Assembly (NCBI RefSeq): GCF_020443705.1
Contig: NZ_JAIZZK010000011.1
Location: 10,810-74,809 of the forward strand
DNA length: 64,000 nucleotides
Reading direction: 5' to 3'
Source: Clostridium algoriphilum
GTDB lineage: Bacteria > Bacillota > Clostridia > Clostridiales > Clostridiaceae
Each line of letters begins with the position of its first letter. Within the stretch, counting starts at the first letter, position 1. Positions 33,225 through 52,229 of the stretch are shown here, one piece after another. The position numbers and the translations under genes are program-made. The notes under the pieces were generated by a model. The model did not search any database, was not told where the DNA came from, and saw only the letters and a list, made by a program, of their open reading frames with translations.

Positions 33225-33301
33225 TGGTGCTCCATCAGGGAATCGAACCCTGGACACCCTGATTAAGAGTCAGGTACTCTAACCAGCTGAGCTAATGAAG
33301 C
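33225..33301 (-). tRNA. tRNA-Lys (anticodon CTT), CCA encoded
   Basis: Reverse complement GCTTCATTAGCTCAGCTGGTTAGAGTACCTGACTCTTAATCAGGGTGTCCAGGGTTCGATTCCCTGATGGAGCACCA folds as cloverleaf: 7-bp acceptor, D-arm GCTC/GAGT, anticodon stem CCTGA/TCAGG with loop CTCTTAA, T-arm CCAGG/CCTGA with GTTCGATTC. Confidence 0.9.
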
Positions 33302-38727: not shown

Positions 38728-39309
38728 CTATACTGCTATCATCCCAGAAAAACCTAGGAAGGCTAATGCTAACATACCTGCTAAAATAAACGCGATGCCA
38801 AGCCCCTCAAGTGGTTTAGGGACATCTGCGAGTCTTAATTTTTCTCTTAAACTTGCCATAAGTACAATTGCCAAAGCAAAGCCTAAACCGGCACCGACTG
38901 CAGATACTGTACTTTCTAAGAATGAATAACTATTCTCTACATTTAAAAGTGGTACACCAAGTACAACACAATTTGTAGCGATTAGTAATAAATAGATACC
39001 CCACATATTATATAATGTAGGTGCATGTTTTTTAATAATCATTTCTAAAAGCTGCACAAAACTAGCAATCAAAAGAACAAACACCGCTGTTGTTAAAAAT
39101 GTTAAATGAAAAGGAGCTAATACAAAATGATATACCACCCATGCGAGCATAGAACTTAGTGTCATAACAGAAGTTACAGCCATTCCCATACCAATAGAGG
39201 CGTTTAAACTTTTAGAAACTCCAAAGAAAATACAAAGTCCTAAAAATCTTGTTAAAACGTAGTTATTTACAATAACCCCACTTGCAAGAAGTGTTAAATA
39301 ATGACCCAT
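38728..39309 (-). CDS. rnfA: Rnf complex subunit A
   Basis: 193 aa polytopic membrane protein, RnfA/NqrE family composition. Confidence 0.85.
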   Translation of the reverse strand: MGHYLTLLASGVIVNNYVLTRFLGLCIFFGVSKSLNASIGMGMAVTSVMTLSSMLAWVVYHFVLAPFHLTFLTTAVFVLLIASFVQLLEMIIKKHAPTLYNMWGIYLLLIATNCVVLGVPLLNVENSYSFLESTVSAVGAGLGFALAIVLMASLREKLRLADVPKPLEGLGIAFILAGMLALAFLGFSGMIAV

Positions 39310-39932
39310 TATACTTCACCTCTCTCAAGTTTAACTTTTTCAGTGTGTTCAGTCCACATCTTAAAACCAGCTACCATGTAACCAATTAGTATAAATGCAC
39401 CTGGTGGTAAAATCATGATAAGTGCCGGATTATACCAAGAACCAAGAACTTTTATTCCAAATATAGCTCCTGTACCAAGAAGTTCACGAATTATCCCAAT
39501 AGATAAAAGCGCAAGTGCAAAACCACATCCCATTCCTAATCCATCGAAAAAGGATGGGGTAACTTTATTCTTTGAAGCAAAAACTTCTGCTCTAGCTAAA
39601 ATAATTGCAAAAACAACAATCAAAGCCAAATATATACCTAAAGCCTTAAAAAGCACAGGTAAATATGCCTGTAATACCAACTGTACCACCGTTACAATTG
39701 TTGCAACTGACGTAATATACACGGGTACACGTACCTTAGGATTTACTACTTTTCTAAAAATAGATACAATAACATTATTTACAGTAATAACAAACATTAC
39801 TGCAAGTCCCATAACTAGGGAATTTATCGCACTACTGGTTACAGCTAAAGCAGGGCAAAGACTAAGTGCAAGAACAAATATCGGGTTCTCTGCAATAATC
39901 CCTTTTTTGAATATATTCCATAGCTCTCTCAT
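39309..39932 (-). CDS. rnfE: Rnf complex subunit E
   Basis: 207 aa membrane protein, RnfE/NqrD family; start overlaps rnfA stop. Confidence 0.85.
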   Translation of the reverse strand: MRELWNIFKKGIIAENPIFVLALSLCPALAVTSSAINSLVMGLAVMFVITVNNVIVSIFRKVVNPKVRVPVYITSVATIVTVVQLVLQAYLPVLFKALGIYLALIVVFAIILARAEVFASKNKVTPSFFDGLGMGCGFALALLSIGIIRELLGTGAIFGIKVLGSWYNPALIMILPPGAFILIGYMVAGFKMWTEHTEKVKLERGEV

Positions 39933-39933
39933 A

Positions 39934-40518
39934 TTATTTTCCCCCTACAAACTGTGTAACTTGTTGCACAGCTTCTTTGATGCCTTTAGTTACCGCTTTA
40001 GACGAAATGGTAGCTCCAGTCATCGCTTGAATATTATTTACTTTTGTTGGGTCTTTTACAACTTCTAAATCTTTGACTGCTTTACCTTTGAATTGATTTC
40101 TAAAAGGATCTTTACTTGCATTATCTCCAAGTCCAGGTGTTTCCTTACTCTCTAATATATTAAAGTCAATAACTTCACCTTTTGGTGTAACTGATACAAG
40201 CATACTTATAGCTCCACCATACCCTTTGCTTTCTGCTGGTACAACATATGCAATTATTTTTCCATCTTTTTCTGCAGTAAACCAATCTGGTTTAGTTTTT
40301 ATCGCAGTAAAAGTTTGTGCATTTGTCACTAGTGACCTCATTGCATCAGTCTTAATTTTTGCTGCCGTTTTTACTGAAACTGGTGCTGTTATAAAATAGG
40401 TTCCAGCAATTATTGCACCTGATATAAAACAGGCAACTGTTAAATTTATAGCAATTTGAAAAATACTATACTTTTTTTCGTGATTAACCTTAGGATCAAT
40501 ATTATTCTCATCTGACAT
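39934..40518 (-). CDS. rnfG: Rnf complex subunit G (FMN-binding, membrane-anchored)
   Basis: 194 aa; single N-terminal TM, FMN_bind domain with conserved SGATISS flavinylation motif. Confidence 0.85.
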   Translation of the reverse strand: MSDENNIDPKVNHEKKYSIFQIAINLTVACFISGAIIAGTYFITAPVSVKTAAKIKTDAMRSLVTNAQTFTAIKTKPDWFTAEKDGKIIAYVVPAESKGYGGAISMLVSVTPKGEVIDFNILESKETPGLGDNASKDPFRNQFKGKAVKDLEVVKDPTKVNNIQAMTGATISSKAVTKGIKEAVQQVTQFVGGK

Positions 40519-41515
40519 TTTTCGCTACCCCCCTCGCTCCAAATTTAACTGGCTTCATAAAGCGATCAATAAGTGGTGTAACTGCATTCATTAATAAAAT
40601 AGAATAACAAACCCCTTCAGGGTATCCACCCTTAAGCCTAATTAGGACAGTAATCGCTCCAGCTCCAATTGCAAAGACTATCTGACCTTTCTTTGTGATT
40701 GGAATAGTAACCATATCTGTAGCCATAAAGAAAGCACCTATAATAAGTCCTCCAGCCATTATATGAAAGAGTGGATCTCCAGTGAATAAACCAGTTGGTC
40801 CACATACCCAAGTTAAAATACCTACAGTTGCAATCATAAATACAGGTACTATCCAATTTGCATAACCTTTATATATTAAATATATACCTCCAATTAGTAA
40901 TAAAACTGTAGAGGTTTCACCAATACTTCCATTACGAGCACCAATAAACATTGATTTATACATTTGAGGTGCACTTCCAAAAGTATCAATTAATTTTGAA
41001 TATCCTTGTTGTTTTAAAATACCGAGTGGTGTTGCAGAAGCTACTGCATCTACCTTTCCGCTCAAACTTGTCCAGGTTGTCATTGCTATTGGCCATGACA
41101 CCATAAGTGCAGCTCTACCTACATGAGCGGGATTAAAAATATTATACCCAAGACCACCCATAGAGTGTTTTGCTATAACAATAGCAATAAAAGAACCAAT
41201 TACTGCCATGTATGCTGGAATAGCTGGTGGTAAACACATTGAAAGCAAGAATCCTGTCAAAAATGCACTTCCATCAGATACTGTTATTGTCTTTTTTCTA
41301 AGTTTTTGCACTATGTACTCAAATGCCACTGCTGACAAACTTCCCGCAAGTAGTACTATTAAAGCAGGAGTTCCAAAGTGATAAATTGCAAAAATCGCTG
41401 CTGGAGTTAATGCCAGACTTACAGTCCACATAATTTTAGAAATAGATGCTTCTGCACGTATATGCGGAGACGTTGATATAGTAAAAAGATTATCTTGTAA
41501 TTTTATTTCACTCAT
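40508..41515 (-). CDS. rnfD: Rnf complex subunit D
   Basis: 335 aa polytopic membrane protein of NqrB/RnfD family; flavinylation-type motif TGATPLG. Confidence 0.85.
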   Translation of the reverse strand: MSEIKLQDNLFTISTSPHIRAEASISKIMWTVSLALTPAAIFAIYHFGTPALIVLLAGSLSAVAFEYIVQKLRKKTITVSDGSAFLTGFLLSMCLPPAIPAYMAVIGSFIAIVIAKHSMGGLGYNIFNPAHVGRAALMVSWPIAMTTWTSLSGKVDAVASATPLGILKQQGYSKLIDTFGSAPQMYKSMFIGARNGSIGETSTVLLLIGGIYLIYKGYANWIVPVFMIATVGILTWVCGPTGLFTGDPLFHIMAGGLIIGAFFMATDMVTIPITKKGQIVFAIGAGAITVLIRLKGGYPEGVCYSILLMNAVTPLIDRFMKPVKFGARGVAKNVR

Positions 41516-42849
41516 TTAGCTAGCGCCTCCTTTTTTTTTGCAGCATCAGCTGTGTTTCTCATCTTGCTGTATTTAATGTATTGTACGATATTGCGCTTAG
41601 CAGGACATACATAAACACAACTTCCACATTCTGCACAGTCAAATAGATTTTGTTCAAGTTTTGCTTCTTCATACATGTCTTTTTCTCCCAATATACTAAG
41701 CATACTTGGATTGAGTCCACAGGGACAAACAGTTACACATTTCCCACAACGAATACAAGGTGATTGCGTTCCGTTATTAATATCTTTTTTGTTTAATCCA
41801 AGGATCCCAGAAACTCCTTTAATAATAGAAATATCTAAATTTGATTGAGCAAATCCCATCATAGGACCACCCATAATAATCTTAGCTGGTTTTTCTGAAA
41901 ATCCACCACAATTATCTATTGCATCTTTAAATGTTGTTCCAATTCTTAAAAGAAGATTTTTAGGTTCTTTTACTGCACTTCCACTTATTGTAGTTACTCT
42001 TTGAATTAGTGGAATACCTTTTACCACTGCATCATTTATTGCAACAACTGTACCTATGTTTTGAACAACTACGCCCACATCCATTGGTAAACTTCCTGAT
42101 GGAACCTCACGATCAGCAATTACCTTAATTAGCATCTTTTCTGCTCCTTGTGGATATTTAGTTGGGATTGCCTTAACTTCCACTGTAGTTCCTTCAAATG
42201 CCTTTTGCATAACACTTACTGCATCAGGTTTATTGTCTTCAATTCCTATGACTGCTCTTTTAACTCCTAGAACCTGCATAATTATTTTTACACCAGTAAC
42301 AATTTGCTCTGGATACTCAAGCATCATTCTATGATCTGCTGTTAAAAACGGTTCACATTCTGCTGCATTTATAATAAGTAAATCAATTTTCTTTTCCTTT
42401 GGTGGTGACAATTTTACGTGAGTTGGAAATGTTGCTCCTCCCATACCAACGATACCTGCATCTTTAATGATGCCTTTTATTTCATTGTCATTTAATTTTT
42501 CCCAATCTCTTTGGACTGGAATTCCTTCTATCCACTCATCGAGTCCATCATTTTCAATAACAATAGAAAGACACTTACCAAATACTGGATGAGGATATTC
42601 TGCAACATCTGTAACAACACCAGATATAGATGCATGAGCCGGACTAGATACAAAAGCTGAACTATTTGCTATAACTTGTCCTTTTTTTACCAAATCGCCC
42701 TTAGCTACCATAGGTGCACAAGGCGCACCTATATGTTGCCTTACAGGAATAATAACCTTACTTGGTAGTAGGGCTATTTCTATAGACTTATCAGCTGTAT
42801 AACGTTTATTATCATTTGGATGTATTCCTCCACGAAAACTTTTAATCAC
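41512..42849 (-). CDS. rnfC: Rnf complex subunit C (NADH-binding, 2x[4Fe-4S])
   Basis: 445 aa; RnfC barrel, NADH/FMN-binding GxGGAxFP-like region (GMGGATFPTHVK), C-terminal CxxCxxCxxxCP pairs. Confidence 0.9.
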   Translation of the reverse strand: MIKSFRGGIHPNDNKRYTADKSIEIALLPSKVIIPVRQHIGAPCAPMVAKGDLVKKGQVIANSSAFVSSPAHASISGVVTDVAEYPHPVFGKCLSIVIENDGLDEWIEGIPVQRDWEKLNDNEIKGIIKDAGIVGMGGATFPTHVKLSPPKEKKIDLLIINAAECEPFLTADHRMMLEYPEQIVTGVKIIMQVLGVKRAVIGIEDNKPDAVSVMQKAFEGTTVEVKAIPTKYPQGAEKMLIKVIADREVPSGSLPMDVGVVVQNIGTVVAINDAVVKGIPLIQRVTTISGSAVKEPKNLLLRIGTTFKDAIDNCGGFSEKPAKIIMGGPMMGFAQSNLDISIIKGVSGILGLNKKDINNGTQSPCIRCGKCVTVCPCGLNPSMLSILGEKDMYEEAKLEQNLFDCAECGSCVYVCPAKRNIVQYIKYSKMRNTADAAKKKEALAK

Positions 42850-42922
42850 TTTCCCACACCTCTTTTAGCATATTTAAAATACATTGAATTATATAGATAT
42901 TTAAAATCTAGAATAATTTTAT

Positions 42923-43342
42923 TTAAGATATAATTTGAGTAATAACTGGTTGCATTTTGTCATTATTATGAGCATATCTATCAAATTTCTTTATACTGAG
43001 CATTGATAATACGAATGTTATTATTCCGCCACCTATTTGAAAACCTCGCATCGAATAACCAAGTTTTTTAGCTATTACTTGTCCAACAATAATACCTATT
43101 ACAACTGAAACTAATGGGGCTATATATACAACAAAAGCCGCCATTAACATATTTGTCTCTTTCATTTGGAACGAAATTCGTTGTCCAGTTTTAGCTCCTA
43201 TTGGATTTTTAGCTTCTATTACAACTGAACTGTCACCTGGGCATGCTCCACAATTTTTACACTCATTGTGCCTGCCTACTTTGACTTTTGCAATATTATT
43301 CTCAAATATTTCTATTATAATTCCTTCTTCTTCTTTTACCAA
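42923..43342 (-). CDS. RseC/MucC-family (SoxR-reducing system) small Fe-S/membrane protein preceding rnf
   Basis: 139 aa; N-terminal CxxC..C soluble domain (ECKNCGACPG) followed by two TM helices; gggggaggag RBS. Confidence 0.7.
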   Translation of the reverse strand: MVKEEEGIIIEIFENNIAKVKVGRHNECKNCGACPGDSSVVIEAKNPIGAKTGQRISFQMKETNMLMAAFVVYIAPLVSVVIGIIVGQVIAKKLGYSMRGFQIGGGIITFVLSMLSIKKFDRYAHNNDKMQPVITQIIS

Positions 43343-43819
43343 TTTTTCTACTCCTCCCCCTTGCTACAATACCAAATATATTATATTCACAGGGATAATT
43401 TCTATTCTAGTTACTCCACACCTCTTAACTAGAATAATAATTCTATTATAAGGTTACGATAAATTCTTATATATTACCTGTCGAATTATATATAAATTAC
43501 AAGTTCTATACCTCAAGATAGTTTTATTTCAGTTAAAAGTCAATAATAATCTATTTTTTAACAAGTATCTTTATAAGAGTTAATTAGGTTTATATAATAT
43601 AAACGCTTTTTAAAATGTATACAGCTTGTTAATTATCAATTTTTATTTTTGATAATATATTCTTGCATACTATTGTTTTTCACAATGTAGGAGAATAATA
43701 ATTCGTTACTATAATAAGAGTTTATAGATTGCTGTTATATTTATATCCTCCAGTACTAATACAGTGCTTGTAAATAATATTCTTTTATTTTATTATGTTT
43801 TAACTATTATTGCCGGATT

Positions 43820-43837
43820 TAGTTAAATATTTAACAA
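43820..43837. promoter_or_regulatory. Candidate Rex operator (TaGTTAAatatTTAACAA) in the long rseC-rnf leader
   Basis: 17/18 match to TTGTTAA-N4-TTAACAA, ~480 bp upstream of rseC start. Confidence 0.45.
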
Positions 43838-44175
43838 TCACTCATCTAGTGAATCTAAATTAGATATGCTTTTAACCTCAGTAATAGGCAAATTGCTGGG
43901 TTCATGCAAAGCTATTTATAATGTCTTAACCTTGAAAATGTACCTTATTCACTAGGTTATCTTAATTATATTATCCATTTAAGAAAAAGTTCTTTCTATA
44001 TAAGAAAGATAAATAGAGATACAATTTAATTGTATCTCTGTACTATAATTTATGTCTATGTTGATATTACTTCTCTTTTTTAAAATATTCTCGTTTTTAT
44101 ATTTGTAATTATAGATAAAGTGTATTAAATATGTTTTATTGATAATTATTTAACTAACTTCTATGATGTTATAAT

Positions 44176-44826
44176 TTATTCTAATATCATTTTATACATA
44201 AGTTCAGTTGGATCAAAAATAGGAATATCTGAATACTTTTTTAATTGATCATATAAATAAGGAAAGTGAGTGCATCCCAATATAATAGCTTCTACTCCGA
44301 TAGAATTATAAAACTCCATAACATTCCTTAATGCATATTTATCTACTATTTCTTTAGCAGATATACCTTTTTCTATTGCAACAACTATAGGGAGTATTCC
44401 TAATCCGATAACATCACAATCAGGATTTACACTTTGTATTACTTTTTCAATTCCTGCGGAGCTTTGATTATTAGCTGAAAGCACCCCAATATTGTGATAC
44501 TCACATGCAATTTTCTTATAAATATCGAATGGGGTTATTATTCTTATATCTTTTTTTCTAGATAACTTGTCCATATCAACTGCAGCACTTATAGAATTGC
44601 AATATATAACTACTGTATTAATGTTTTCATATTTTATCCGGTTTATTATATTACTAATTTTATTTGCAAGTTCAAATGGGGACAATATTTGCATCTTTGA
44701 TTGTTCCTCAGAGCACAAGGATACTGGGTATCCTAATGCCTTAATCCCTTTAGAATTCAAGAAATCCACTCCCATTTTAGTATCCACAGGAGTTCCTGCA
44801 ATAACCGCAACTAATATATTATTCAT
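44176..44826 (-). CDS. Asp/Glu/hydantoin racemase-superfamily protein
   Basis: 216 aa; N-terminal MNNILVAVIAGTPVDTKMGV and conserved Cys-containing halves typical of the Asp/Glu racemase fold. Confidence 0.6.
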   Translation of the reverse strand: MNNILVAVIAGTPVDTKMGVDFLNSKGIKALGYPVSLCSEEQSKMQILSPFELANKISNIINRIKYENINTVVIYCNSISAAVDMDKLSRKKDIRIITPFDIYKKIACEYHNIGVLSANNQSSAGIEKVIQSVNPDCDVIGLGILPIVVAIEKGISAKEIVDKYALRNVMEFYNSIGVEAIILGCTHFPYLYDQLKKYSDIPIFDPTELMYKMILE

Positions 44827-44875
44827 TTGTATTACCTCTCATCATTTTTTTTGTACATTTTATTCCATTCATTGG

Positions 44876-45502
44876 CTATATTAAATCTTTTATTAATACT
44901 ATCCTAGCAGGAGAACCATCTACGCCTTTAATTTTAAGTGGTAACGCACACATAAAATATTCTTCCTCAGTAATTTTTTTAAGTCTTACTCCTTCTATAA
45001 TAATTATCCCTTTATTAAAAAGTATCTTGTGAGTTTCATGATCCGGTTGAGCTCTCTCAATTCCAAAAGAATCTATAGCAACGCCTACTATACTTTTTTC
45101 TGCTAAATACTCAGCCCCACTCTTTTCAACATACACAAAACCAGGTTCAAATTCTTCTGTAAATGAGTTTTTAGTTTTTAGTAATAAGAATTCACCAGAT
45201 TTAATGTTTTTATCCATAAGGTCTTCTTTCGTAATACCACCTATTACTTTTGTTAGGTCTAAAACCCTACATTTTGTAATTAAATTATTTAAATCAATAT
45301 CATCAATGGTAGACCCCATATTATCTACGTGATATGGAGCATCTACATGAGTTCCTGTATGTAAATTCATATACATACTAGATTCATTAATACTATCCTT
45401 TGGAATTTTTCTTTCATATTTAATAACTGGCCTTTTTTCCTCTTTATTCTTATATACTCCCATTTTCGGCTCTATTGTCATAGATATATCATAAATGATC
45501 AT
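44876..45502 (-). CDS. Cyclase-family metal-dependent hydrolase (kynurenine formamidase-like, PF04199)
   Basis: Signature HTGTHVDAPYH (HxGTHxDxPxH); start set at MIIYDISM after aggag RBS (ORF track extends 15 codons upstream, overlapping zwf). Confidence 0.75.
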   Translation of the reverse strand: MIIYDISMTIEPKMGVYKNKEEKRPVIKYERKIPKDSINESSMYMNLHTGTHVDAPYHVDNMGSTIDDIDLNNLITKCRVLDLTKVIGGITKEDLMDKNIKSGEFLLLKTKNSFTEEFEPGFVYVEKSGAEYLAEKSIVGVAIDSFGIERAQPDHETHKILFNKGIIIIEGVRLKKITEEEYFMCALPLKIKGVDGSPARIVLIKDLI

Positions 45503-45503
45503 T

Positions 45504-47021
45504 TTATATCTCCTTATAAGGTGCAGTATTCCACCACTGTCTGCCATCCTTCTTAATTAAATTTATTGCTTCTTCTGGTCCTGGTGTGCCTGCTGCGTAA
45601 TTAGGATAATTAGATATATCGCTTTCATATCCCTTTTCTATGCTTTCAATAAATTTCCATGAATGTTCAAGTTCATCCCACCTTGTAAACAAAGATGAGT
45701 TATTTCTAATTGCCTCTAATAATAGCCTCTCATAGGCTTCAGGCGAATCATTTACATACTTACAGCTTTGGCAATAATCTAATTCCACCTTTTCCATTTT
45801 AAAATCATTACCAGGTTTTTTAGCATTTATCTGAAAGAAAAAGCCCTCTTCTGGCTGAATTTTTAAAACTAAAAGATTATGACCAATTTCATTAAATTCC
45901 TTATAATAATTGATCCCAGCAAGTTTCTTAAATTGAATAACTATCTCTGTACTTTTTGTATCCATTCTCTTTCCTGCTCTTATATATATGGGTACTCCTC
46001 CCCATCGAAAATTATCAATATATGTCTTAAGAGCTATAAACGTATCTGTATTAGATTCTCTTGACACTCTATCTTCTTGTCTATATCCCACTGCTTTTAT
46101 TCCATTGACGATTCCCTCCCCATATTGACCCCGAACTATGTCTTCCTTAACAGATTCCTCAGTAAAAGGTCTGAGTGATCGTAGAACCTTAACTTTCTCA
46201 TCTCTTATTGATTCAGGATCAAAGTCTACCGGAGGTTCCATTGCAATCATTGTTAACATTTGTAATAAATGATTTTGAAGCATATCTTTTAATATACCAG
46301 CCTTTTCATAATATGCCCCTCTATTCTCTACACCTAAAAGTTCATTAGATGTAATTTGAATATTATCAATATAATTTGCATTCCATAGGGGTTCAAATAA
46401 AGAGTTACCAAATCTGATTGCTAATATATTTTGAATCATTTCCTTCCCCAAATAGTGGTCTATTCTAAATATGTCCTCTTCTGGTATAAGTTTTGATATA
46501 TTATGGTTTAAAATTCTAGCTGTTTTCAAACTTGATCCAAAAGGTTTTTCGACCATTATCCTCTGCCATCCTGTTGCCATACATACCATATTATTATTCT
46601 TTAAATTTCTAATTATTCCTTCAAAAAATTCTGGTGCAACTGCTAAATAATATAATCTCCTACCTCCAGTTAAGTATTCAGTCTCCACATTTATTAAAAA
46701 TGAATCTAAATCCTTGTACCCTTCCTTGTCTGATGTAAAATCAAAGTTTTTATAGAAAATTCTTTTACTAAAAGTTCGCCACAATTTATCATTTAAAGGA
46801 AACCGGCAGAATTTTATTGCAAATTCGTACATTTCTTCTCTGTATTGTTCATTTGTTTTTTCCCGTCTTCCTATAGACACAATTGTAAAATTCTCTGGTA
46901 ATTTATTCTCGTACATCAAACTAAAAATAGCAGGAATAAGTTTTCTTTTTGTTAGATCGCCAGTTCCACCAAAAATTACAAACATACTAGAAAGTTCTTT
47001 ATTTATATCTTTCTCCATCAA
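45504..47021 (-). CDS. zwf: Glucose-6-phosphate 1-dehydrogenase
   Basis: 505 aa; NADP-binding FVIFGGTGDLTKRKLIPAIF and active-site RIDHYLGKE motifs. Confidence 0.9.
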   Translation of the reverse strand: MMEKDINKELSSMFVIFGGTGDLTKRKLIPAIFSLMYENKLPENFTIVSIGRREKTNEQYREEMYEFAIKFCRFPLNDKLWRTFSKRIFYKNFDFTSDKEGYKDLDSFLINVETEYLTGGRRLYYLAVAPEFFEGIIRNLKNNNMVCMATGWQRIMVEKPFGSSLKTARILNHNISKLIPEEDIFRIDHYLGKEMIQNILAIRFGNSLFEPLWNANYIDNIQITSNELLGVENRGAYYEKAGILKDMLQNHLLQMLTMIAMEPPVDFDPESIRDEKVKVLRSLRPFTEESVKEDIVRGQYGEGIVNGIKAVGYRQEDRVSRESNTDTFIALKTYIDNFRWGGVPIYIRAGKRMDTKSTEIVIQFKKLAGINYYKEFNEIGHNLLVLKIQPEEGFFFQINAKKPGNDFKMEKVELDYCQSCKYVNDSPEAYERLLLEAIRNNSSLFTRWDELEHSWKFIESIEKGYESDISNYPNYAAGTPGPEEAINLIKKDGRQWWNTAPYKEI

Positions 47022-47191
47022 GTGCCTCCTTCCTCCTATTTTTTTATAATATACTTTTTATCATATTCATTTTGTATTTTTATGTTCCAATTATCATTCT
47101 TAATGTATTACAAATTAATCAAAATAAAATAACTAACTTATTATAATTAATATTAATAAGTTAGAGTTTTAAAGTAAGGTTTATTTATGTC

Positions 47192-47872
47192 CTATAAATC
47201 TACAATTGATACACCTTTTCCAAATATAGTTTCAAAATCAGTTGTAAAATCCTCCACAGCCTTTTTAATTACAGGCATTTTGAGAGCAGTATGTAGAAGT
47301 GCTGGTTGGATTGTCGCCGTTTGTGCACCACACTCAAATGCTGTATTTACCTGTCCCATATTTTTAAAGCTTGCAGCAAGTATTGTGGTTGAGTAATTAT
47401 ACTTTTCAATCATCTTAGCAAAAGTAGTAATAACTGCCTTAGGATCTATATCCATGTTCTCCATACGATTGTAATAAGGAGCTATAAAATCTGCACCGGC
47501 CTCCATAGCAAGTAACCCTTGTACTTTTGTATAAATTGCAGTAGCAGTAACCCCAATTCCTTTTGCTTTTAAGGCTCTAATTGCTTTTAATCCTTGCTCA
47601 GTTACAGGCACTTTTATAAATACCTTATCATCAACATTCTTGATAATAGCAGCAGCTTCTGCCATTATGCCATCATAATCCTCTGAAACGACTTGAATAT
47701 GAAGAGATTTATTCATTCCTATAATTTTTCGAATCTCTTTGAAGTGATTAAAAAAATTAATTTTACCCTCTATTTTTATAATGCTTGGATTGCTAGTAAT
47801 CCCTGTTATTGGGTAAAACTCACTATAATGCTTAATATCCTCTATATTAATTGTGTCAAACATATATTTCAT
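47192..47872 (-). CDS. Transaldolase-family class-I aldolase of the Fsa/TalC subtype (fructose-6-phosphate aldolase-like)
   Basis: 226 aa; GITSNPSII, IKVPVTEQGLKAIRALKAKGIGVTATAIY (Schiff-base Lys region), ADFIAPYYNRM, ILAASFK align block-for-block with E. coli FsaA. Confidence 0.8.
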   Translation of the reverse strand: MKYMFDTINIEDIKHYSEFYPITGITSNPSIIKIEGKINFFNHFKEIRKIIGMNKSLHIQVVSEDYDGIMAEAAAIIKNVDDKVFIKVPVTEQGLKAIRALKAKGIGVTATAIYTKVQGLLAMEAGADFIAPYYNRMENMDIDPKAVITTFAKMIEKYNYSTTILAASFKNMGQVNTAFECGAQTATIQPALLHTALKMPVIKKAVEDFTTDFETIFGKGVSIVDL

Positions 47873-47892
47873 AGTTTAAAACTCCTTTTATA

Positions 47893-50298
47893 TTATATTT
47901 TGTGTTCGGTACGTTCTATTATGTCATCCTGAGTCTGTTTTGATAATACATTAAAGAATGCACTGTAGCCTGCAACACGTACAATTAAATCACGATGGTC
48001 CTCTGGATGTTTTTGTGCATCTAATAACACTTCTCTTGATACTACATTATACTGAACATGAAACCCATGCAATCGATTAAAGAAGGTACGTAGGAGCATA
48101 ACAAGCTTCATTCTATCTTCCTCTTTTTCAAGCATTTGTGGATTTACCTTTTGGTTTAAAAGCACTCCCCCAGTAATTTTTTCAGTAGGTAGTTTTGAAA
48201 CCGATTTAAACACAGATGTAGGGCCGTTTTTATCCATACCGTGACTTGGAGAACACCCTTCAGCAAGTGGAGTATGAGCTAATCGTCCATCCGGCGTTGC
48301 TGATGTAGAATCCCCTTGTGGTACATTTGCAGATATTGAAGATGTTCCTGCCGAATATATTCCACCAATAGGTCCACGACCATATCTAGTGTTATGGTAT
48401 TTTCCTATTTCATCAATGTATACATCATATGCATCTTTTAATAATAAATCAATATAGTCGTCGTCATTTCCATATTTTGGTGCATCATTTATTAGCGAAT
48501 TCTGTATTTTCTTTCCTTCTTCGCCTTCAAAATTGTTGCTTATTGCTACCCACAATTGAGATGTGGTAAAAAGTTTATCCTCAAATATACATTTTTTTAT
48601 AGCAGCCAGGGAATCTCCCAGATTTGCTATGCCAACCTGTAGTCCGCTAATAAAGTCATAAACTGCTCCACCTTCTTTTAGAGTTAATCCACGGTCAATG
48701 CAATCATCAACTAAGCTAGAGCATAAAACATCTGCAGCATCTTGCTCAAGTACTGTGTCTGCACAGTTATCAATAATAACGCTGTGACGTGTAAACTCAC
48801 GGATGATTTTATCCCAGGCCTCAAGCACTTGGTCAAATCTTTCCATATTTTTAAAATGACCAACCCCCTCGCATAATTTAATACCACTTTCAATATCAAC
48901 ACCATCATTCAATGCTATCATAAAGCTCTTAACAAAATTTAAAAAACTCATACCAGTGCATCTATATCCCCATTTTCCCGGCACCGCAACCTCAACGCAT
49001 CCAATAGCACTGTAATTGTAGGCATCAATTTCCTTAACACCTTTTTTTATAAAACTAGGAATGATAATTTCATCATTGTTAAAAGCCGGCATTCCTGTAC
49101 CTAACCGAACGACCTCTATACACTCCTTCATAAAGGTATCATCCAATCCACTATGATAACGAACTGTTAAATTAGGTTGTGGTAGTTTAACTTGTGCTAC
49201 ACTACGTAGTATTAGATACGATAGTGGGTTAACAGCATCCTTCTTAGAACTTGTTTGACCTCCAACTGTAACATTTTGATAAAGTGGACTACCAGCACTA
49301 AATTGAGTATGGCCCCAAGAACGAATTTTATTAATTGTATAAGTTTTTAGCCACAAATTGGTTAATAATTCACAAGCATAATCTTTTGTAACCGTTTTAT
49401 CAGCAAGGTCTTTCTTGTAAAATGGATATAAGTATTGGTCCATTCTGCCATAAGAAAGTGAGTGTCCATTAGACTCAATTTGTAAACATAAATGAACAAT
49501 CCACAATGATTGAATAGCCTCTTGCAAATTATCCGCACCAGCAAACGGAACCTTGCTAAGAATGTGACCCATATTTACAAGTTCTGCCCTGCGATTATCA
49601 TTTTGCTCAGTCCTCGCCTTCTCGAATGCACAATCTGCATAACGCTTAGCAAAATCAACTACTGCGTTTAGTACAATGATAATTCCACGATAAAAATAAG
49701 ACTTGTTTAATTTTTTATAGTCTGTTAAGTCTAGATCATTAAGTTTCTCCTGGGTACGCTTCTTGTAATCAGCTAGGCCGTATATTAAAATCTTTTCATA
49801 ATTAACGGCTAAATGAGCGTCTCCAGATGTAATATTTCCCTCAGCTTTAATTATACCTAAATCATAAAACACTTTGCTCTCAGCAGGCATAGCTGCTATA
49901 CCACGGTCTTTTAGTGTGTTATGCTCCCAGTATGGTGCAATTTTTCTTAGAGCCTGCTTATTTTCTTCTGTAATATAAAACCGATCTCCGTCACGCTTAT
50001 CAAACTCATCAAGCTCCTTTATTACCCAATCCATTGCATATTCCGGGAAAATAGGTGCAGAGCGATTAGAACATGCTTGATTACCTGCAATCAGAGTTTG
50101 AGGCTCAATATATATGCTCATATTTTTCAGCACATTCTCAAGCATTAATGCTCTACGCAAAACCATTGGTTTATCCGCATGTAGCTTGTAACTTTCTGTT
50201 ACAAGTTTAGCACGTTCTACACACACCATAGGTTTTGCGTTTAATAAATCTTCACGAAACTCTTGCATTCTTGTAGTTAATTTACCAAAGTAATTCAT
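47893..50298 (-). CDS. Glycyl radical enzyme, PFL2/dehydratase-eliminase class (single catalytic Cys in GCVE motif), substrate unknown
   Basis: 801 aa; C-terminal glycyl radical motif RVAGYSAFFNVL; active-site AIGCVEVAVPG (Cys-Glu as in glycerol dehydratase/CutC/HypD rather than the Cys-Cys of true PFL). Confidence 0.85.
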   Translation of the reverse strand: MNYFGKLTTRMQEFREDLLNAKPMVCVERAKLVTESYKLHADKPMVLRRALMLENVLKNMSIYIEPQTLIAGNQACSNRSAPIFPEYAMDWVIKELDEFDKRDGDRFYITEENKQALRKIAPYWEHNTLKDRGIAAMPAESKVFYDLGIIKAEGNITSGDAHLAVNYEKILIYGLADYKKRTQEKLNDLDLTDYKKLNKSYFYRGIIIVLNAVVDFAKRYADCAFEKARTEQNDNRRAELVNMGHILSKVPFAGADNLQEAIQSLWIVHLCLQIESNGHSLSYGRMDQYLYPFYKKDLADKTVTKDYACELLTNLWLKTYTINKIRSWGHTQFSAGSPLYQNVTVGGQTSSKKDAVNPLSYLILRSVAQVKLPQPNLTVRYHSGLDDTFMKECIEVVRLGTGMPAFNNDEIIIPSFIKKGVKEIDAYNYSAIGCVEVAVPGKWGYRCTGMSFLNFVKSFMIALNDGVDIESGIKLCEGVGHFKNMERFDQVLEAWDKIIREFTRHSVIIDNCADTVLEQDAADVLCSSLVDDCIDRGLTLKEGGAVYDFISGLQVGIANLGDSLAAIKKCIFEDKLFTTSQLWVAISNNFEGEEGKKIQNSLINDAPKYGNDDDYIDLLLKDAYDVYIDEIGKYHNTRYGRGPIGGIYSAGTSSISANVPQGDSTSATPDGRLAHTPLAEGCSPSHGMDKNGPTSVFKSVSKLPTEKITGGVLLNQKVNPQMLEKEEDRMKLVMLLRTFFNRLHGFHVQYNVVSREVLLDAQKHPEDHRDLIVRVAGYSAFFNVLSKQTQDDIIERTEHKI

Positions 50299-50317
50299 AT
50301 TTTTCTCCTTTTAGTAA

Positions 50318-51073
50318 TTATTGTGTATCTACTACTTGTACATCTAAGTTATTTTGAACTAATAGGCTTTCCATAACTTCAGGTATTTTGTTATCAGTAA
50401 CAAGAATAGTGACTTCATTAATTTTAAACTGTGATACTACACCTTGCATAAAAAATTTTCTAGATTCGGTTAACACAATAACCTTATTAGCATTTTCAGC
50501 CATCGTTCTTACTGTTTCTGTTCTCATGTGATTATTGCCTGTAAATCCTGCTAATTCAGTAAACCCATCTGTACCAACAAATAGCTTATCCACATAAAAA
50601 CTTTCAATACATTTGCGAGTAATTGGCCCAACCACAACCTGACTCTCCTTCTGGTAATCACCCCCAAGCAAAACTACCTTTCCATAAGGACATTCTCTTA
50701 TGTATGATGCTACAAATGCAGAATTAGTAATTATGGTGACATCACGCTTATTTGTTGCAAGCTCCTGGGCAAGTAATGCGCAACACGAACCAGACTCAAT
50801 CATCACCGTTTCACCATTTTCAACTAAATTTGCAGCTAAAATTGCAATTTTAAGCTTCACATCATAGTTACAGGCCAAGCGGTTATTAATATCGTCACTA
50901 CTAATCATTACGGCATAACCATGCTCTCTCTTTATAAGGCCTTTTTCTTCAAGTAATGCCAGATCCTTACGTACTGTAACTTGTGAAACCGCAAGCTTTT
51001 CAGATAATAAAGTAACTTCAATACGACCATTTGCATTTACAAGTTCTAATAGTTTTGCATGCCTTTTGTTCAT
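50318..51073 (-). CDS. DeoR/GlpR-family transcriptional regulator
   Basis: 251 aa; N-terminal HTH (RHAKLLELVNANGRIEVTLLSEKLAVSQVTVRKDLALLEEKGLIKR) + C-terminal sugar-phosphate-binding DeoR_C domain. Confidence 0.85.
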   Translation of the reverse strand: MNKRHAKLLELVNANGRIEVTLLSEKLAVSQVTVRKDLALLEEKGLIKREHGYAVMISSDDINNRLACNYDVKLKIAILAANLVENGETVMIESGSCCALLAQELATNKRDVTIITNSAFVASYIRECPYGKVVLLGGDYQKESQVVVGPITRKCIESFYVDKLFVGTDGFTELAGFTGNNHMRTETVRTMAENANKVIVLTESRKFFMQGVVSQFKINEVTILVTDNKIPEVMESLLVQNNLDVQVVDTQ

Positions 51074-51326
51074 GAAAAATCTTCCTTTCTTTCCTAAATA
51101 TTATGCAAATTATATCACAGTGGGTTTCAAAAATAAAGATATTAATTTCAAGTGAAATAGATCATCATTCGTTCACAAGTTAATTATAGCAAATATACTC
51201 TATAAATCAATTTATAGTTTCATTCGTAACTAATATAATTTTTATATGAAGCTTTTACTTTACTTTAAAATATGTCTATGCTACTATAACTTAAAATGAT
51301 AAAAAAAGTATATAAGGAGCTATCAT

Positions 51327-52229
51327 ATGAATAATCAAACTGCTTCCATCTTCAATATACAAAAATATAGTATTCACGATGGACCAGGTATTCGCACAGT
51401 AGTATTTTTTAAAGGGTGCCCTTTAAAATGCCTTTGGTGCAGTAATCCGGAGTCACAATATGGTAGTCCACAGCTATCCTTTGATGAAAGTAAATGTGAT
51501 GGATGCTTAAAATGCATGGAAATCTGTCCACATAAGAATATCGCTTTTATAAATAATAAAATCACTTTTAATGGGAATAAATGTACCGGTTGTTTGAACT
51601 GCGTTAAGACATGCCCTAAGTCAGCACTTACCATATTCGGAAAATACCGAAACCTTGATTATATTATGAAAGAAGTTATGAAGGATAAAGACTTTTATGC
51701 TGAGTCAAAGGGTGGTGTTACATTATCCGGTGGTGAGGTTTTAGTGCAACATGAATTTGCAATTGTTTTACTGCAAGAGCTAAGAGAACAAGGCATCCAT
51801 ACCGCCTGTGAAACTACAGGATATGCACCACCAGAAATTTTCCAAACGATTATTAAAAAAGTTGATTTACTTTTATTTGACATAAAGCATTATGATAGCC
51901 AAAAGCACTTTGCTTATACTAATGTTTATAACGAAACAATTATTTTCAACTTAAAAACTGCAATTGAACAAGGGAAAGATGTTATTATCCGAATTCCAGT
52001 GATACCCGACATCAATAACAGTTTGGAAGATGCACAGGGTTTTTGTAATATTTTAAAAGAAGTTGGTGCAATAAAAGTAAACCTATTACCTTTTCATCAA
52101 TTTGGTGAAAAAAAATACTCCTTATTGAATAAGAAGTACAGTTTTGCAGGTGTTTCCCAATTGCATGAAGATGATTTACAAGATTATAAAGAAATATTCA
52201 TTAAAAATGGACTAGATTGTATAATATAA
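51327..52229 (+). CDS. Glycyl-radical-enzyme activating enzyme (radical SAM, PflE/YbiY-type with extra ferredoxin-like clusters)
   Basis: 300 aa; radical SAM CPLKCLWCSNPE, two additional CxxCxxCxxxCP motifs (CDGCLKCMEICP, CTGCLNCVKTCP), glycine-rich SAM motif SGGEVL; aaggag RBS; divergent from deoR. Confidence 0.85.
   Translation: MNNQTASIFNIQKYSIHDGPGIRTVVFFKGCPLKCLWCSNPESQYGSPQLSFDESKCDGCLKCMEICPHKNIAFINNKITFNGNKCTGCLNCVKTCPKSALTIFGKYRNLDYIMKEVMKDKDFYAESKGGVTLSGGEVLVQHEFAIVLLQELREQGIHTACETTGYAPPEIFQTIIKKVDLLLFDIKHYDSQKHFAYTNVYNETIIFNLKTAIEQGKDVIIRIPVIPDINNSLEDAQGFCNILKEVGAIKVNLLPFHQFGEKKYSLLNKKYSFAGVSQLHEDDLQDYKEIFIKNGLDCII

What the first reader, a model, noticed from the sequence alone, without database searches (positions are those of the whole stretch)
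44176..52229. Glycyl-radical-enzyme locus co-organised with an Fsa-type aldolase, G6PD, a cyclase-family hydrolase and a racemase-like protein, under a DeoR regulator
The minus strand carries deoR -> 801-aa GRE -> fsa/talC-like aldolase with 19-20 nt gaps, then zwf -> cyclase -> Asp/Glu-racemase-like. A PflE/YbiY-type activase with extra Fe-S clusters is transcribed divergently. The GRE carries a single Cys in a GCVE motif, which places it in the dehydratase/eliminase class (CutC, HypD, glycerol/propanediol dehydratase) rather than true PFL. In E. coli the paralogous pairs ybiW(pflF)-ybiY next to fsaA, and pflD-pflC near fsaB, show the same unexplained GRE-Fsa linkage, and the physiological substrate of that GRE clade has remained unclear. 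Here the linkage is extended by G6PD, a DeoR sugar-phosphate-type regulator and two further enzymes. That suggests an anaerobic, radical-based route for a hexose/hexitol-phosphate-like substrate feeding triose-phosphate and NADPH chemistry. This is the most plausible under-described system in the window.
Basis: partly seen in the sequence, partly recalled or inferred. Interest (0 to 1): 0.75.

Follow-up and report, generated by a model that had tools for sequence, protein, structure and literature searches.

The report
Known anhydro-sugar radical pathway beside unrelated genes
The glycyl-radical enzyme, its activase, the aldolase and the DeoR regulator form a Clostridium copy of the 1,5-anhydroglucitol "anhydroglycolysis" pathway solved in E. 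coli in 2024, while the G6PD, cyclase-family and racemase-like genes are unrelated neighbours that only sit next to it in a few close relatives.

Summary
All seven genes exist as described; two proteins are 100% identical to Clostridium algoriphilum proteins.

**Core module.** The 801-aa GRE is a full-length homologue of E. coli YbiW (52.5% identity; 913 bits against 606 for glycerol dehydratase). Ma et al. (JACS 2024) showed YbiW to be the 1,5-anhydroglucitol-6-phosphate C-O lyase whose product, 1-deoxyfructose-6-P, is cleaved by Fsa. The "unexplained" GRE-Fsa linkage is therefore already explained. In 80 related genomes the conserved set is AE / DeoR / GRE, often with Fsa, a ROK kinase and a sugar ABC transporter.

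**The extension.** zwf, cyclase and racemase accompany this GRE only in the three closest relatives. C. estertheticum has zwf-cyclase at the same chromosomal site with no GRE module. In metagenomes this cyclase subfamily sits directly after zwf, often with gnd, and never with a GRE. The racemase-like gene stands alone elsewhere. A structurally conserved terminator hairpin follows fsa.

**Verdict.** This is a new member of a known system next to an oxidative pentose-phosphate pair by chance adjacency. The one under-described item is the cyclase-family protein, a candidate 6-phosphogluconolactonase.

The parts
51327..52229 (+). GRE-activating radical-SAM enzyme (300 aa), transcribed divergently from deoR
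   Evidence: TIGR02494 PFLE_PFLC scores 350 bits against a cutoff of 174. CX3CX2C at residues 31-38 plus two CX2CX2CX3C ferredoxin motifs. 38-39% identical to E. coli YbiY and PflC. Next to the GRE in 60 of 80 loci.
51074..51326 (.). Divergent control region. It holds a sigma-70-like promoter for deoR-GRE-fsa (TTGATT, 16 nt, TATAAT, minus strand 51210..51183) flanked by two operator-like sites: TTACGAATGAAA (51218-51229, minus) and TTTCAAGTGAAA (51146-51157, plus).
   Evidence: Promoter scan. The motif TTTCGAATGAAAC and its inverted copy recur in the same positions in the orthologous intergenic regions (22 aligned), from Clostridium to Propionispira. Two of the three window-wide matches fall in this 253-nt region, where 0.41 matches are expected in the whole 64 kb. 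DeoR binding is inferred, not shown.
50318..51073 (-). DeoR-family regulator (251 aa), first gene of the operon
   Evidence: HTH_DeoR + DeoRC. The best NCBIfam match is YciT-like but below its cutoff. Conserved beside this GRE clade in 60 of 80 loci.
47893..50298 (-). YbiW-type glycyl radical enzyme (801 aa), predicted 1,5-anhydroglucitol-6-phosphate C-O lyase (GRE 'isomerase' class)
   Evidence: PDB search: YbiW 8id7/8yjn 913 bits and 6xs4 916 bits, against glycerol dehydratase 606, PflD 478, CutC 437 and HypD 428. 52.5% identity to E. coli YbiW over the full length, against 36.6% to PflD. Cys434/Glu436 align with YbiW Cys441/Glu443 and Gly777 lies in RVAGYS. Below every NCBIfam equivalog cutoff (CutC, HypD, HpsG, HpfG, PflD, PFL); it passes only the subfamily model TIGR01774.
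47192..47872 (-). Fsa-type aldolase (226 aa), predicted 1-deoxyfructose-6-P aldolase giving glyceraldehyde-3-P and hydroxyacetone
   Evidence: NF009299 fructose-6-phosphate aldolase scores 316 bits against a cutoff of 214. FsaA residues D6, N28, Q59, K85, T109, Y131 and R134 are all conserved. Directly downstream of the GRE in most of the 31 loci that have it.
47121..47164 (-). Terminator-like hairpin (CTAACTTATTA-loop-TAATAAGTTAG) followed by TTATTTTATTTT, directly after the fsa stop codon
   Evidence: Folds at -9.5 kcal/mol, which is weak on its own (z -1.16). However, a hairpin plus T-tract is kept at the same place with a different sequence in relatives (L003 and L001: GCCAACTTGTAA...TTACAAGTTGGC TTTTTT). 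Coordinates checked.
45504..47018 (-). Glucose-6-phosphate dehydrogenase (zwf, 504 aa from ATG 47018). A separate unit, not part of the GRE pathway.
   Evidence: TIGR00871 zwf equivalog scores 601 bits against a cutoff of 400. Strong RBS AGGAGGAAGGAGG. Present at the same backbone site in C. estertheticum, which has no GRE module there.
44876..45502 (-). PF04199 cyclase-family metal hydrolase (208 aa), start codon 1 nt after the zwf stop. Candidate 6-phosphogluconolactonase.
   Evidence: HxGTHxDxPxH motif invariant. 100% identical to a C. algoriphilum protein. zwf lies immediately upstream in 17 of 21 metagenomic loci with at least 45% identity and enough flank, and gnd is present in 13 of 21. 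Below the KynB equivalog cutoff (123 against 223). Closest structures are the uncharacterised hydrolases 8HMO and 1R61.
44176..44826 (-). Asp/Glu-racemase-superfamily protein (216 aa) of unknown function; a lineage-specific neighbour
   Evidence: PF01177 scores 38.9 bits; far below the glutamate racemase cutoff (64 against 147). Absent from C. estertheticum at this site. Homologues are stand-alone genes in unrelated contexts.
44015..44039 (-). Terminator-like hairpin after the racemase-like gene
   Evidence: 11-pair stem AGAGATACAAT/ATTGTATCTCT followed by a T-rich tail. Conserved in L081.

Best explanation
The region holds three independent units.

**Unit 1 (51327-52229 plus strand; 51073-47192 minus strand).** This is a Clostridium version of the 'anhydroglycolysis' module known from E. 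coli ybiW-ybiY/fsaA.
- The activase uses SAM and its [4Fe-4S] clusters to place a radical on Gly777 of the GRE.
- The radical passes to Cys434, which abstracts H from C2 of 1,5-anhydroglucitol-6-phosphate.
- Glu436 deprotonates the C2-OH and the ring C-O bond breaks, giving 1-deoxyfructose-6-phosphate.
- The Fsa aldolase (Schiff-base Lys87, Tyr133) splits this into glyceraldehyde-3-phosphate and hydroxyacetone.
- The DeoR protein probably represses its own operon through TTTCGAATGAAA-type sites that bracket the promoter. It is probably released by the sugar phosphate.
- Uptake and phosphorylation are encoded elsewhere, as in E. coli. Many relatives carry a ROK kinase plus an ABC transporter, or a PTS, in the locus.

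**Unit 2 (47018-44876).** zwf plus a translationally coupled cyclase-family metal hydrolase form an oxidative pentose-phosphate pair. The hydrolase occupies the slot of 6-phosphogluconolactonase.

**Unit 3 (44826-44176).** An orphan racemase-superfamily gene.

Units 2 and 3 are neighbours of unit 1 only in the C. algoriphilum / C. lacusfryxellense lineage.

**Shown here:** homology, motifs, synteny and co-occurrence statistics. **Inferred:** substrate identity, DeoR operator and effector, terminator function, and lactonase activity.
For: **GRE identity.**
- Best PDB matches are YbiW (913 bits, full length), far above all other characterised GREs.
- 52.5% identity to YbiW against 36.6% to PflD.
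- The catalytic Cys, Glu and Gly align.
- At the positions equivalent to glycerol-dehydratase active-site residues, the window protein and YbiW are identical to each other. They share 'GYRCTGMSF', 'AGTSSISANV' and a YGRGP insertion that glycerol dehydratase lacks (the residue list for glycerol dehydratase is from my memory of the literature).

**Published function of YbiW, PflD and Fsa:** PMC13450708 and PMC12441222.

**Fsa signature residues** are conserved and the NCBIfam equivalog is passed.

**Context of 80 GREs at 69-91% identity**: DeoR in 60 loci, AE in 60, ROK kinase in 38, Fsa in 31, sugar ABC transporter in 10-13. zwf is in 3, cyclase in 2 and racemase in 2, all among the closest relatives.

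**Independence of zwf-cyclase.**
- C. estertheticum has PBP, a 406-aa protein, zwf, cyclase, RseC and rnf at the same site with no GRE module.
- zwf-cyclase-gnd or gnd-zwf-cyclase operons occur elsewhere.
- None of 84 cyclase loci contains a GRE, fsa, deoR, AE or racemase gene. 17 of 21 close ones have zwf directly upstream.

**Racemase-like homologues** sit in unrelated contexts.

**Hairpin plus T-tract after fsa** is kept through sequence change.

**Operator-like motif** is conserved and locally enriched.
Against: - 52.5% identity does not prove the same substrate; YbiW and PflD differ only in the C2 epimer they accept.
- I could not read the primary paper or the ligand contacts of 8ID7, so the AG6P-binding residues were not checked directly.
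- No transporter, kinase or hydroxyacetone reductase (gldA-like) lies in the 64-kb window.
- The window's own terminator hairpin is AT-rich and not significantly more stable than shuffles (z -1.16). Some read-through from fsa into zwf cannot be excluded.
- The zwf-cyclase-racemase block is retained next to the GRE module in every member of the closest lineage seen (L003, L015, L081-L083). A lineage-specific functional coupling is therefore not formally ruled out.
- No gnd lies in the window, so the pentose-phosphate reading of zwf-cyclase is incomplete for this genome.
Confidence: 0.75

Rival explanations
1. One reading: all six minus-strand genes plus the activase form one DeoR-controlled pathway. 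A radical enzyme opens a hexose/hexitol-phosphate-like substrate, and G6PD, the cyclase-family hydrolase and the racemase-like protein carry out further steps or supply NADPH.
For: The genes are co-oriented and contiguous in the window and in the closest relatives (L003, L015, L081-L083). The generic scan found no strong GC-rich terminator between fsa and zwf. Hydroxyacetone reduction would consume reducing equivalents.
Against: zwf, cyclase and racemase are absent from 75-78 of 80 loci carrying this GRE clade, including two at 85-87% identity (L002, L004). zwf-cyclase occupies the same backbone site in C. estertheticum without the GRE module. None of 84 cyclase loci has a GRE or fsa. The fsa-zwf gap is 173 nt, against 19-20 nt inside the operon, and it holds a structurally conserved hairpin plus T-tract. 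1,5-Anhydroglucitol-6-P has no anomeric hydroxyl for a G6PD to oxidise (chemistry, own knowledge).
Confidence: 0.05
2. The GRE belongs to the YbiW lineage, but the Clostridial clade has shifted to a different phosphorylated anhydro- or deoxy-sugar. Examples would be the mannitol epimer, another 1,5-anhydrohexitol-6-P, or a 1-deoxy/2-deoxy sugar phosphate. The product would still be a ketose phosphate cleaved by Fsa.
For: Identity to YbiW is only 52.5%. The Fsa protein is only 31-33% identical to FsaA and FsaB. No NCBIfam equivalog model exists to confirm the function. Neighbouring uptake systems differ between lineages: ROK + ABC, PTS + GH1, or none.
Against: The Cys loop and the other active-site-equivalent segments are identical between the window protein and YbiW. 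It is far closer to YbiW than to the epimer-specific PflD (913 against 478 bits). A ROK (glucokinase-type) kinase is the commonest extra neighbour, consistent with a gluco-configured substrate.
Confidence: 0.15
3. The GRE is a classical 1,2-eliminase/dehydratase (glycerol, propanediol, choline or hydroxyproline type), as its CXE motif first suggests.
For: The CXE motif is present. The subfamily model TIGR01774 'PFL2/glycerol dehydratase family' is passed. Glycerol dehydratase is the next-best solved relative (606 bits).
Against: It scores about half of every equivalog cutoff: HypD 575 against 1100, CutC 546 against 1050, HpsG 562 against 1000. It differs from glycerol dehydratase at the Asp447- and Tyr640-equivalent positions, where it matches YbiW. 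No microcompartment, aldehyde dehydrogenase or 1,3-propanediol dehydrogenase genes lie within 10 kb in the syntenic locus. The conserved partners are an aldolase and a sugar kinase.
Confidence: 0.03

Closest known systems
E. coli YbiW-YbiY with FsaA (1,5-anhydroglucitol-6-phosphate C-O lyase pathway, 'anhydroglycolysis'; Ma et al., JACS 2024; PDB 8ID7)
   Same: The GRE is homologous over its full length (52.5% identity) and has the same Cys-x-Glu and Gly-radical motifs. The activase is of the same type, with extra Fe-S clusters. An Fsa-type aldolase with all catalytic residues lies adjacent. No transporter is encoded in the locus.
   Different: Here a DeoR regulator heads the operon and fsa is co-transcribed directly after the GRE; in E. 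coli fsaA is divergent and there is no DeoR. The activase is divergent rather than downstream. No YbiV-type phosphatase is present. The aldolase is only 31% identical to FsaA. Activity is untested.
E. coli PflD-PflC with Frw PTS, FsaB and GldA (1,5-anhydromannitol-6-phosphate pathway; PDB 8ID0)
   Same: Same chemistry class (GRE isomerase giving 1-deoxyfructose-6-P) and the same aldolase step.
   Different: Only 36.6% identity to the GRE. The PflD equivalog model is failed (584 against 1109 bits). No PTS or gldA lies in the window.
B12-independent glycerol dehydratase and other GRE 1,2-eliminases (GD, PD, CutC, HypD, HpsG)
   Same: PFL-like fold, CXE Cys loop and the same activase family.
   Different: Much lower scores. 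The residues differ at the substrate-binding positions equivalent to GD Asp447 and Tyr640. The context is sugar-phosphate genes, not aldehyde-handling or microcompartment genes. The predicted product is an isomer of the substrate, not an elimination product.
Oxidative pentose-phosphate operons (zwf-pgl-gnd)
   Same: zwf passes the equivalog model. In related loci the order is gnd-zwf-X or zwf-X-gnd, with X immediately coupled to zwf.
   Different: X is a PF04199 cyclase-family metal hydrolase, not a DevB/Pgl or YbhE-type lactonase. No gnd lies in this window.
PF04199 enzymes: kynurenine formamidase KynB, isatin hydrolase, trans-dienelactone hydrolase, esterase MGS0169; uncharacterised Geobacillus hydrolase 1R61/3KRV
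   Same: The HxGTHxDxPxH metal motif is invariant. The closest solved structures are 8HMO and 1R61 (about 200 bits).
   Different: It fails the KynB equivalog cutoff (123 against 223). The genomic partner is zwf/gnd, not tryptophan-catabolism genes.

Membership tests
YbiW-type GRE (1,5-anhydroglucitol-6-P C-O lyase, GRE isomerase class) | C-terminal glycyl-radical motif RVxG[FY] and PFL-like barrel | tested here: met
   PF02901 678 bits and PF01228 123 bits. RVAG777YS.
YbiW-type GRE (1,5-anhydroglucitol-6-P C-O lyase, GRE isomerase class) | Cys loop with Cys-x-Glu aligned to YbiW Cys441/Glu443, which contact C2 and the C2-OH of the substrate | tested here: met
   Window Cys434/Glu436 align with YbiW C441/E443. 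The roles of these residues are taken from PMC13450708.
YbiW-type GRE (1,5-anhydroglucitol-6-P C-O lyase, GRE isomerase class) | Closer to YbiW than to any other characterised GRE | tested here: met
   913 bits to 8id7, against 606 (GD), 478 (PflD), 437 (CutC) and 428 (HypD). 52.5% identity to YbiW against 36.6% to PflD.
YbiW-type GRE (1,5-anhydroglucitol-6-P C-O lyase, GRE isomerase class) | Substrate-contact residues of the AG6P complex (8ID7) conserved | tested here: inconclusive
As a proxy, the window protein and YbiW are identical at all positions equivalent to the GD active site and share the segments GYRCTGMSF and AGTSSISANV.
YbiW-type GRE (1,5-anhydroglucitol-6-P C-O lyase, GRE isomerase class) | Converts AG6P to 1-deoxyfructose-6-P | not testable with these tools
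   Needs anaerobic reconstitution with the activase.
YbiW-type GRE (1,5-anhydroglucitol-6-P C-O lyase, GRE isomerase class) | Linked to a dedicated activase and to an Fsa-type aldolase | tested here: met
   The activase is divergent and fsa lies 20 nt downstream. The linkage is conserved in 60 (AE) and 31 (Fsa) of 80 loci.
   HypD 575 against 1100; CutC 546 against 1050; HpsG 562 against 1000; HpfG 529 against 1000.
   None within 10 kb in the syntenic annotated locus L081. The recurrent neighbours are DeoR, ROK, Fsa and ABC transporter genes.
Fructose-6-phosphate aldolase (Fsa; transaldolase subfamily 5) | Curated model score and the aldolase signature Gln59, Lys85, Thr109, Tyr131 (transaldolases carry Glu and Phe at the Gln59 and Tyr131 positions) | tested here: met
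   NF009299 316 bits against 214. Q60, K87, T111, Y133 and R136 are conserved. The meaning of these residues is from my own knowledge of the Fsa/TalB literature.
GRE-activating enzyme (PflC/YbiY type) | Radical-SAM CX3CX2C plus two auxiliary ferredoxin-type clusters | tested here: met
   TIGR02494 350 bits against 174. Motifs at residues 31-38, 57-67 and 86-96.
Oxidative pentose-phosphate module | zwf equivalog | tested here: met
   TIGR00871 601 bits against 400.
Oxidative pentose-phosphate module | A lactonase and gnd linked to zwf | tested here: inconclusive
   No gnd lies in the window. In related loci gnd-zwf-cyclase is the recurrent trio and no canonical pgl cluster appears. Lactonase activity of the cyclase-family protein is untested.
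Kynurenine formamidase (KynB) | Equivalog score, with the HxGTHxDxPxH motif | tested here: not met
   The motif is present, but TIGR03035 scores 123 against 223. No tryptophan-catabolism neighbours are seen.
Glutamate racemase (MurI) | Equivalog score | tested here: not met
   TIGR00067 scores 64 against 147. The protein is 216 aa, against about 255-290 aa for solved MurI proteins.

The most novel reading that the evidence does not exclude
The PF04199 'cyclase-family' protein translationally coupled to zwf (44876-45502) represents a widespread, uncharacterised subfamily. It would serve as the 6-phosphogluconolactonase of gnd-zwf-X operons in anaerobic Firmicutes and other bacteria: a third, non-homologous type of Pgl. 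Less likely, in the C. algoriphilum lineage its juxtaposition with the anhydroglycolysis operon could be functional.
Probability: 0.4. Interest if true: 0.45.

Novelty: new member of a known kind. Interest (0 to 1): 0.22.

Why it matters
For the finding as posed, little changes. The long-standing puzzle of why YbiW/PflD-type radical enzymes sit next to Fsa aldolases was solved experimentally in 2024, and this locus is a regular Clostridial example. It carries a DeoR regulator and co-transcribed fsa.

The analysis does add some detail. The conserved core of the pathway in Firmicutes and Spirochaetes is AE / DeoR / (ROK kinase) / GRE / (Fsa), with interchangeable uptake systems. There is also a candidate DeoR operator that could be tested.

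The by-product may be more useful. A cyclase-family metal hydrolase is a consistent partner of zwf and gnd. This gives a directly testable candidate for the lactonase step in organisms whose oxidative pentose-phosphate operons lack a recognisable pgl.

Tried and rejected
- **Primary paper.** Ma et al. 2024 (doi 10.1021/jacs.4c07718) is not held, so substrate-contact residues could not be taken from it. I used two papers that summarise it.
- **RNA elements.** Rfam found no riboswitch or leader between 43200 and 47300, and only a tRNA in the whole window. An RNA element coupling fsa to zwf is therefore rejected.
- **Missing pathway genes.** tblastn of the window for ROK kinase, PTS EIIBC, sugar-binding protein, GH1, gldA and gnd found none. 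The only hit was an unrelated ABC ATPase at about 9000-9650.
- **Terminator scan.** The generic scan missed the hairpin after fsa because the stem has fewer than 3 G-C pairs. It was found by eye and by comparison with relatives.
- **Literature on the cyclase.** Searches for a cyclase-family / 6-phosphogluconolactonase link found nothing relevant.
- **Source contig.** A look-up of the C. algoriphilum contig through P0121 failed. The organism assignment rests on two proteins at 100% identity.
- **Considered and rejected.** G6PD acting on 1,5-anhydroglucitol-6-P (there is no anomeric OH). The cyclase as kynurenine formamidase and the racemase as MurI (both fail the equivalog cutoffs).
- **Not run.** Structure prediction and fold search, because sequence-level homology to solved YbiW structures was already unambiguous.

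Full report
**1. Observation.**

- a PFL-like/Gly_radical protein of 801 aa;
- a TAL_FSA protein that passes the NCBIfam fructose-6-phosphate aldolase model (316 bits against 214);
- a zwf that passes its equivalog (601 against 400);
- a PF04199 cyclase-family protein;
- a weak Asp/Glu-racemase-superfamily protein;
- a DeoR regulator;
- a divergent 300-aa GRE activase (TIGR02494, 350 against 174).

The 19- and 20-nt gaps, the GCVE motif (Cys434, Glu436), the RVAG777YS glycyl loop and the two extra CX2CX2CX3C motifs of the activase are all confirmed. Comparison with relatives gives refined starts: ATG 47018 for zwf (504 aa) and ATG 45502 for the cyclase gene (208 aa), 1 nt after the zwf stop.

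The cyclase and racemase-like proteins are 100% identical to proteins named from Clostridium algoriphilum. The window is therefore from that species or a near-identical strain.

**2. What the GRE is.**

Against all PDB sequences, the best matches are E. coli YbiW (8id7/8yjn, 913 bits, full length) and a near-identical entry, 6xs4. These are far ahead of glycerol dehydratase (606), PflD (478), CutC (437) and HypD (428).

Direct comparison with E. coli K-12 proteins (loci fetched) gives 52.5% identity to YbiW and 36.6% to PflD. The protein fails every NCBIfam equivalog cutoff for CutC, HypD, HpsG, HpfG, PflD, PFL, IAD and HPAD. It passes only the broad subfamily model.

A 2026 review of glycyl radical enzymes (PMC13450708) and a 2025 review (PMC12441222) report the results of Ma et al., J. 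Am. Chem. Soc. 2024, 146:26187:
- YbiW cleaves the ring C-O bond of 1,5-anhydroglucitol-6-phosphate, and PflD that of 1,5-anhydromannitol-6-phosphate.
- Both give 1-deoxyfructose-6-phosphate, which aldolases split into glyceraldehyde-3-phosphate and hydroxyacetone.
- Cys441 sits near C2 of the substrate and Glu443 hydrogen-bonds the C2-OH.

These two residues align with Cys434 and Glu436 of the window protein.

I also compared the window protein, YbiW and glycerol dehydratase at the active-site positions I recall for glycerol dehydratase (His164, His281, Ser282, Tyr339, Cys433, Glu435, Asp447, Tyr640; own knowledge). The window protein and YbiW are identical to each other at all of them. They differ from glycerol dehydratase at the last two, and they share a six-residue insertion, YGRGP(I/V).

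The primary paper was not available, so the real AG6P contact residues were not checked.

**3. The aldolase, activase and regulator.**

The aldolase is only 31-33% identical to FsaA and FsaB. It nevertheless keeps Asp6, Asn28, Gln59, Lys85, Thr109, Tyr131 and Arg134 in FsaA numbering. This is the aldolase signature rather than the transaldolase one (own knowledge of the Fsa/TalB literature).

In the 253-nt deoR-activase spacer, a sigma-70-like promoter (TTGATT, 16 nt, TATAAT) is bracketed by TTACGAATGAAA and, inverted, TTTCAAGTGAAA. The same motif (consensus TTTCGAATGAAAC) occupies the same positions in orthologous spacers, 22 of which were aligned, from Clostridium to Propionispira. Two of the three matches in the whole 64 kb lie in this spacer, against 0.41 expected for the whole window. 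I read these as DeoR operators. That is an inference.

**4. Is the wider linkage conserved?**

A scan of one genome per species returned 80 loci whose GRE is 69-91% identical to the window protein. They come from Clostridium, Treponema, Lachnospiraceae, Selenomonadales and others. tblastn and ORF clustering of these loci gave the counts below (families confirmed).

| Neighbour of the GRE | Loci (of 80) |
|---|---|
| DeoR regulator | 60 |
| Activase | 60 |
| ROK-family kinase, usually directly upstream of the GRE | 38 |
| Fsa | 31 |
| Ribose-type ABC transporter | 10-13 |
| PTS EIIBC with a GH1 glycosidase | a few (C. beijerinckii-like loci) |
| zwf | 3 |
| Cyclase | 2 |
| Racemase-like | 2 |

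The zwf, cyclase and racemase cases are all among the closest relatives: Clostridium sp. UBA4746 at 91%, C. lacusfryxellense at 86%, and a truncated contig at 88%. Two loci at 85-87% identity (L002, L004) lack these genes.

**5. What zwf, cyclase and racemase are.**

*Same site without the GRE module.* In C. estertheticum the backbone is PBP, a 406-aa unknown protein, zwf, cyclase, RseC and rnfCDGEAB. This is the same chromosomal site as in the window, but with no activase, deoR, GRE, fsa or racemase gene. The GRE module and the zwf-cyclase pair are therefore separable, and they are adjacent only where the module lies in that intergenic site.

*More distant cyclase homologues.* These sit in 6PGD-zwf-...-cyclase and in a tight zwf-cyclase-6PGD operon.

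*Metagenome scan.* A scan with an alignment of this subfamily gave 80 further loci.
- Where the homologue is at least 45% identical and at least 1.5 kb of upstream flank is available, zwf lies immediately upstream on the same strand in 17 of 21 loci. gnd is present in 13 of 21.
- Below 40% identity the association fades: zwf is never immediately upstream and lies elsewhere in the locus in only 4 of 21.
- None of the 84 loci holds a GRE, fsa, deoR, activase or racemase homologue.
- zwf and a short (about 300-aa) gnd are the only recurrent neighbours.

*Likely function.* The subfamily keeps the HxGTHxDxPxH metal motif but fails the kynurenine formamidase equivalog. Its closest solved structures are uncharacterised metal-dependent hydrolases: 8HMO and Geobacillus 1R61/3KRV. 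PF04199 already includes a trans-dienelactone hydrolase and a Mn-dependent carboxylesterase (PMC5341072), so lactone hydrolysis has a precedent in the family. The most economical reading is an oxidative pentose-phosphate pair, with the cyclase-family protein in the 6-phosphogluconolactonase slot. No paper in the searchable library makes this link.

*Racemase-like gene.* Its homologues in Tepidibacter, C. tetanomorphum and Gudongella are stand-alone genes in unrelated contexts.

**6. Transcription units.**

The fsa-zwf gap is 173 nt, against 19-20 nt inside the operon. Directly after the fsa stop lies an 11-bp perfect inverted repeat followed by TTATTTTATTTT. Alone it is weak (-9.5 kcal/mol, z -1.16).

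In C. lacusfryxellense and in L001, however, the same position holds a different, GC-richer hairpin followed by TTTTTT. The structure is kept while the sequence changes, as expected of a terminator.

A second hairpin follows the racemase gene (44015-44039). Rfam found no regulatory RNA in 43200-47300.

**7. Mechanism proposed.**

- Shown for E. coli and inferred here: 1,5-anhydroglucitol is taken up and phosphorylated by functions encoded elsewhere. No PTS, ROK kinase or gldA lies in the window.
- The activase generates the Gly777 radical.
- The Cys434 thiyl radical abstracts H from C2. Glu436 deprotonates the C2-OH, the ring opens and the alpha-keto radical is quenched, giving 1-deoxyfructose-6-P.
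- Fsa cleaves this to glyceraldehyde-3-P and hydroxyacetone.
- DeoR represses the operon until a sugar phosphate accumulates.

zwf-cyclase runs independently, converting glucose-6-P to 6-phosphogluconate.

**8. Verdict.**

- The GRE-Fsa-DeoR-activase system is real, but it is a member of an already characterised pathway.
- The enzyme belongs to the newly defined GRE isomerase class rather than to the dehydratases.
- The extension to G6PD, cyclase and racemase is a lineage-specific adjacency.

Novelty: new member of a known kind. Interest is low (0.22). The cyclase-family candidate lactonase is the only lead worth following.

Noticed in passing
window 44876-45502 (-); related loci L086, L088-L132: This PF04199 'cyclase-family' subfamily is a consistent partner of zwf and of a short, roughly 300-aa gnd. 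zwf lies directly upstream in 17 of 21 close metagenomic loci. No canonical pgl recurs in these operons, so the protein is a candidate non-homologous 6-phosphogluconolactonase. The closest structures (8HMO, 1R61/3KRV) are uncharacterised.
   Followed up: partly
window 43343-44175: An 833-nt stretch without ORFs lies between the racemase-like gene and rseC-rnfCDGEAB. It has blocks conserved as far as C. estertheticum, for example TTGACTTTT...AAATAAAACTATCTTGAG...ATATAATTCGACAGG. There is no Rfam match. It may be a long leader or promoter region of the rnf operon.
   Followed up: partly
L001-L080 (loci with this GRE clade): A ROK-family kinase is the commonest extra gene (38 of 80 loci, usually directly upstream of the GRE), often with a ribose-type ABC transporter. 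C. beijerinckii-like loci instead carry a PTS EIIBC and a GH1 glycosidase. The uptake and phosphorylation route therefore varies between lineages, and it is absent from the window's locus.
   Followed up: partly
L086 5046-6266 (C. estertheticum): A 406-aa protein with no Pfam match occupies the site between the PBP gene and zwf, where the window carries the activase-deoR-GRE-fsa module.
   Followed up: no
L002 20876-22402: A second, distant GRE paralogue (33% identity to the window GRE) lies about 8 kb downstream of the YbiW-type GRE in Clostridiaceae bacterium ES-bin-163.
   Followed up: no
window 38728-43342 (-): A complete rseC-rnfCDGEAB cluster lies immediately downstream of the region, syntenic in all close relatives. 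A tRNA gene lies at 33228-33301 (-).
   Followed up: no
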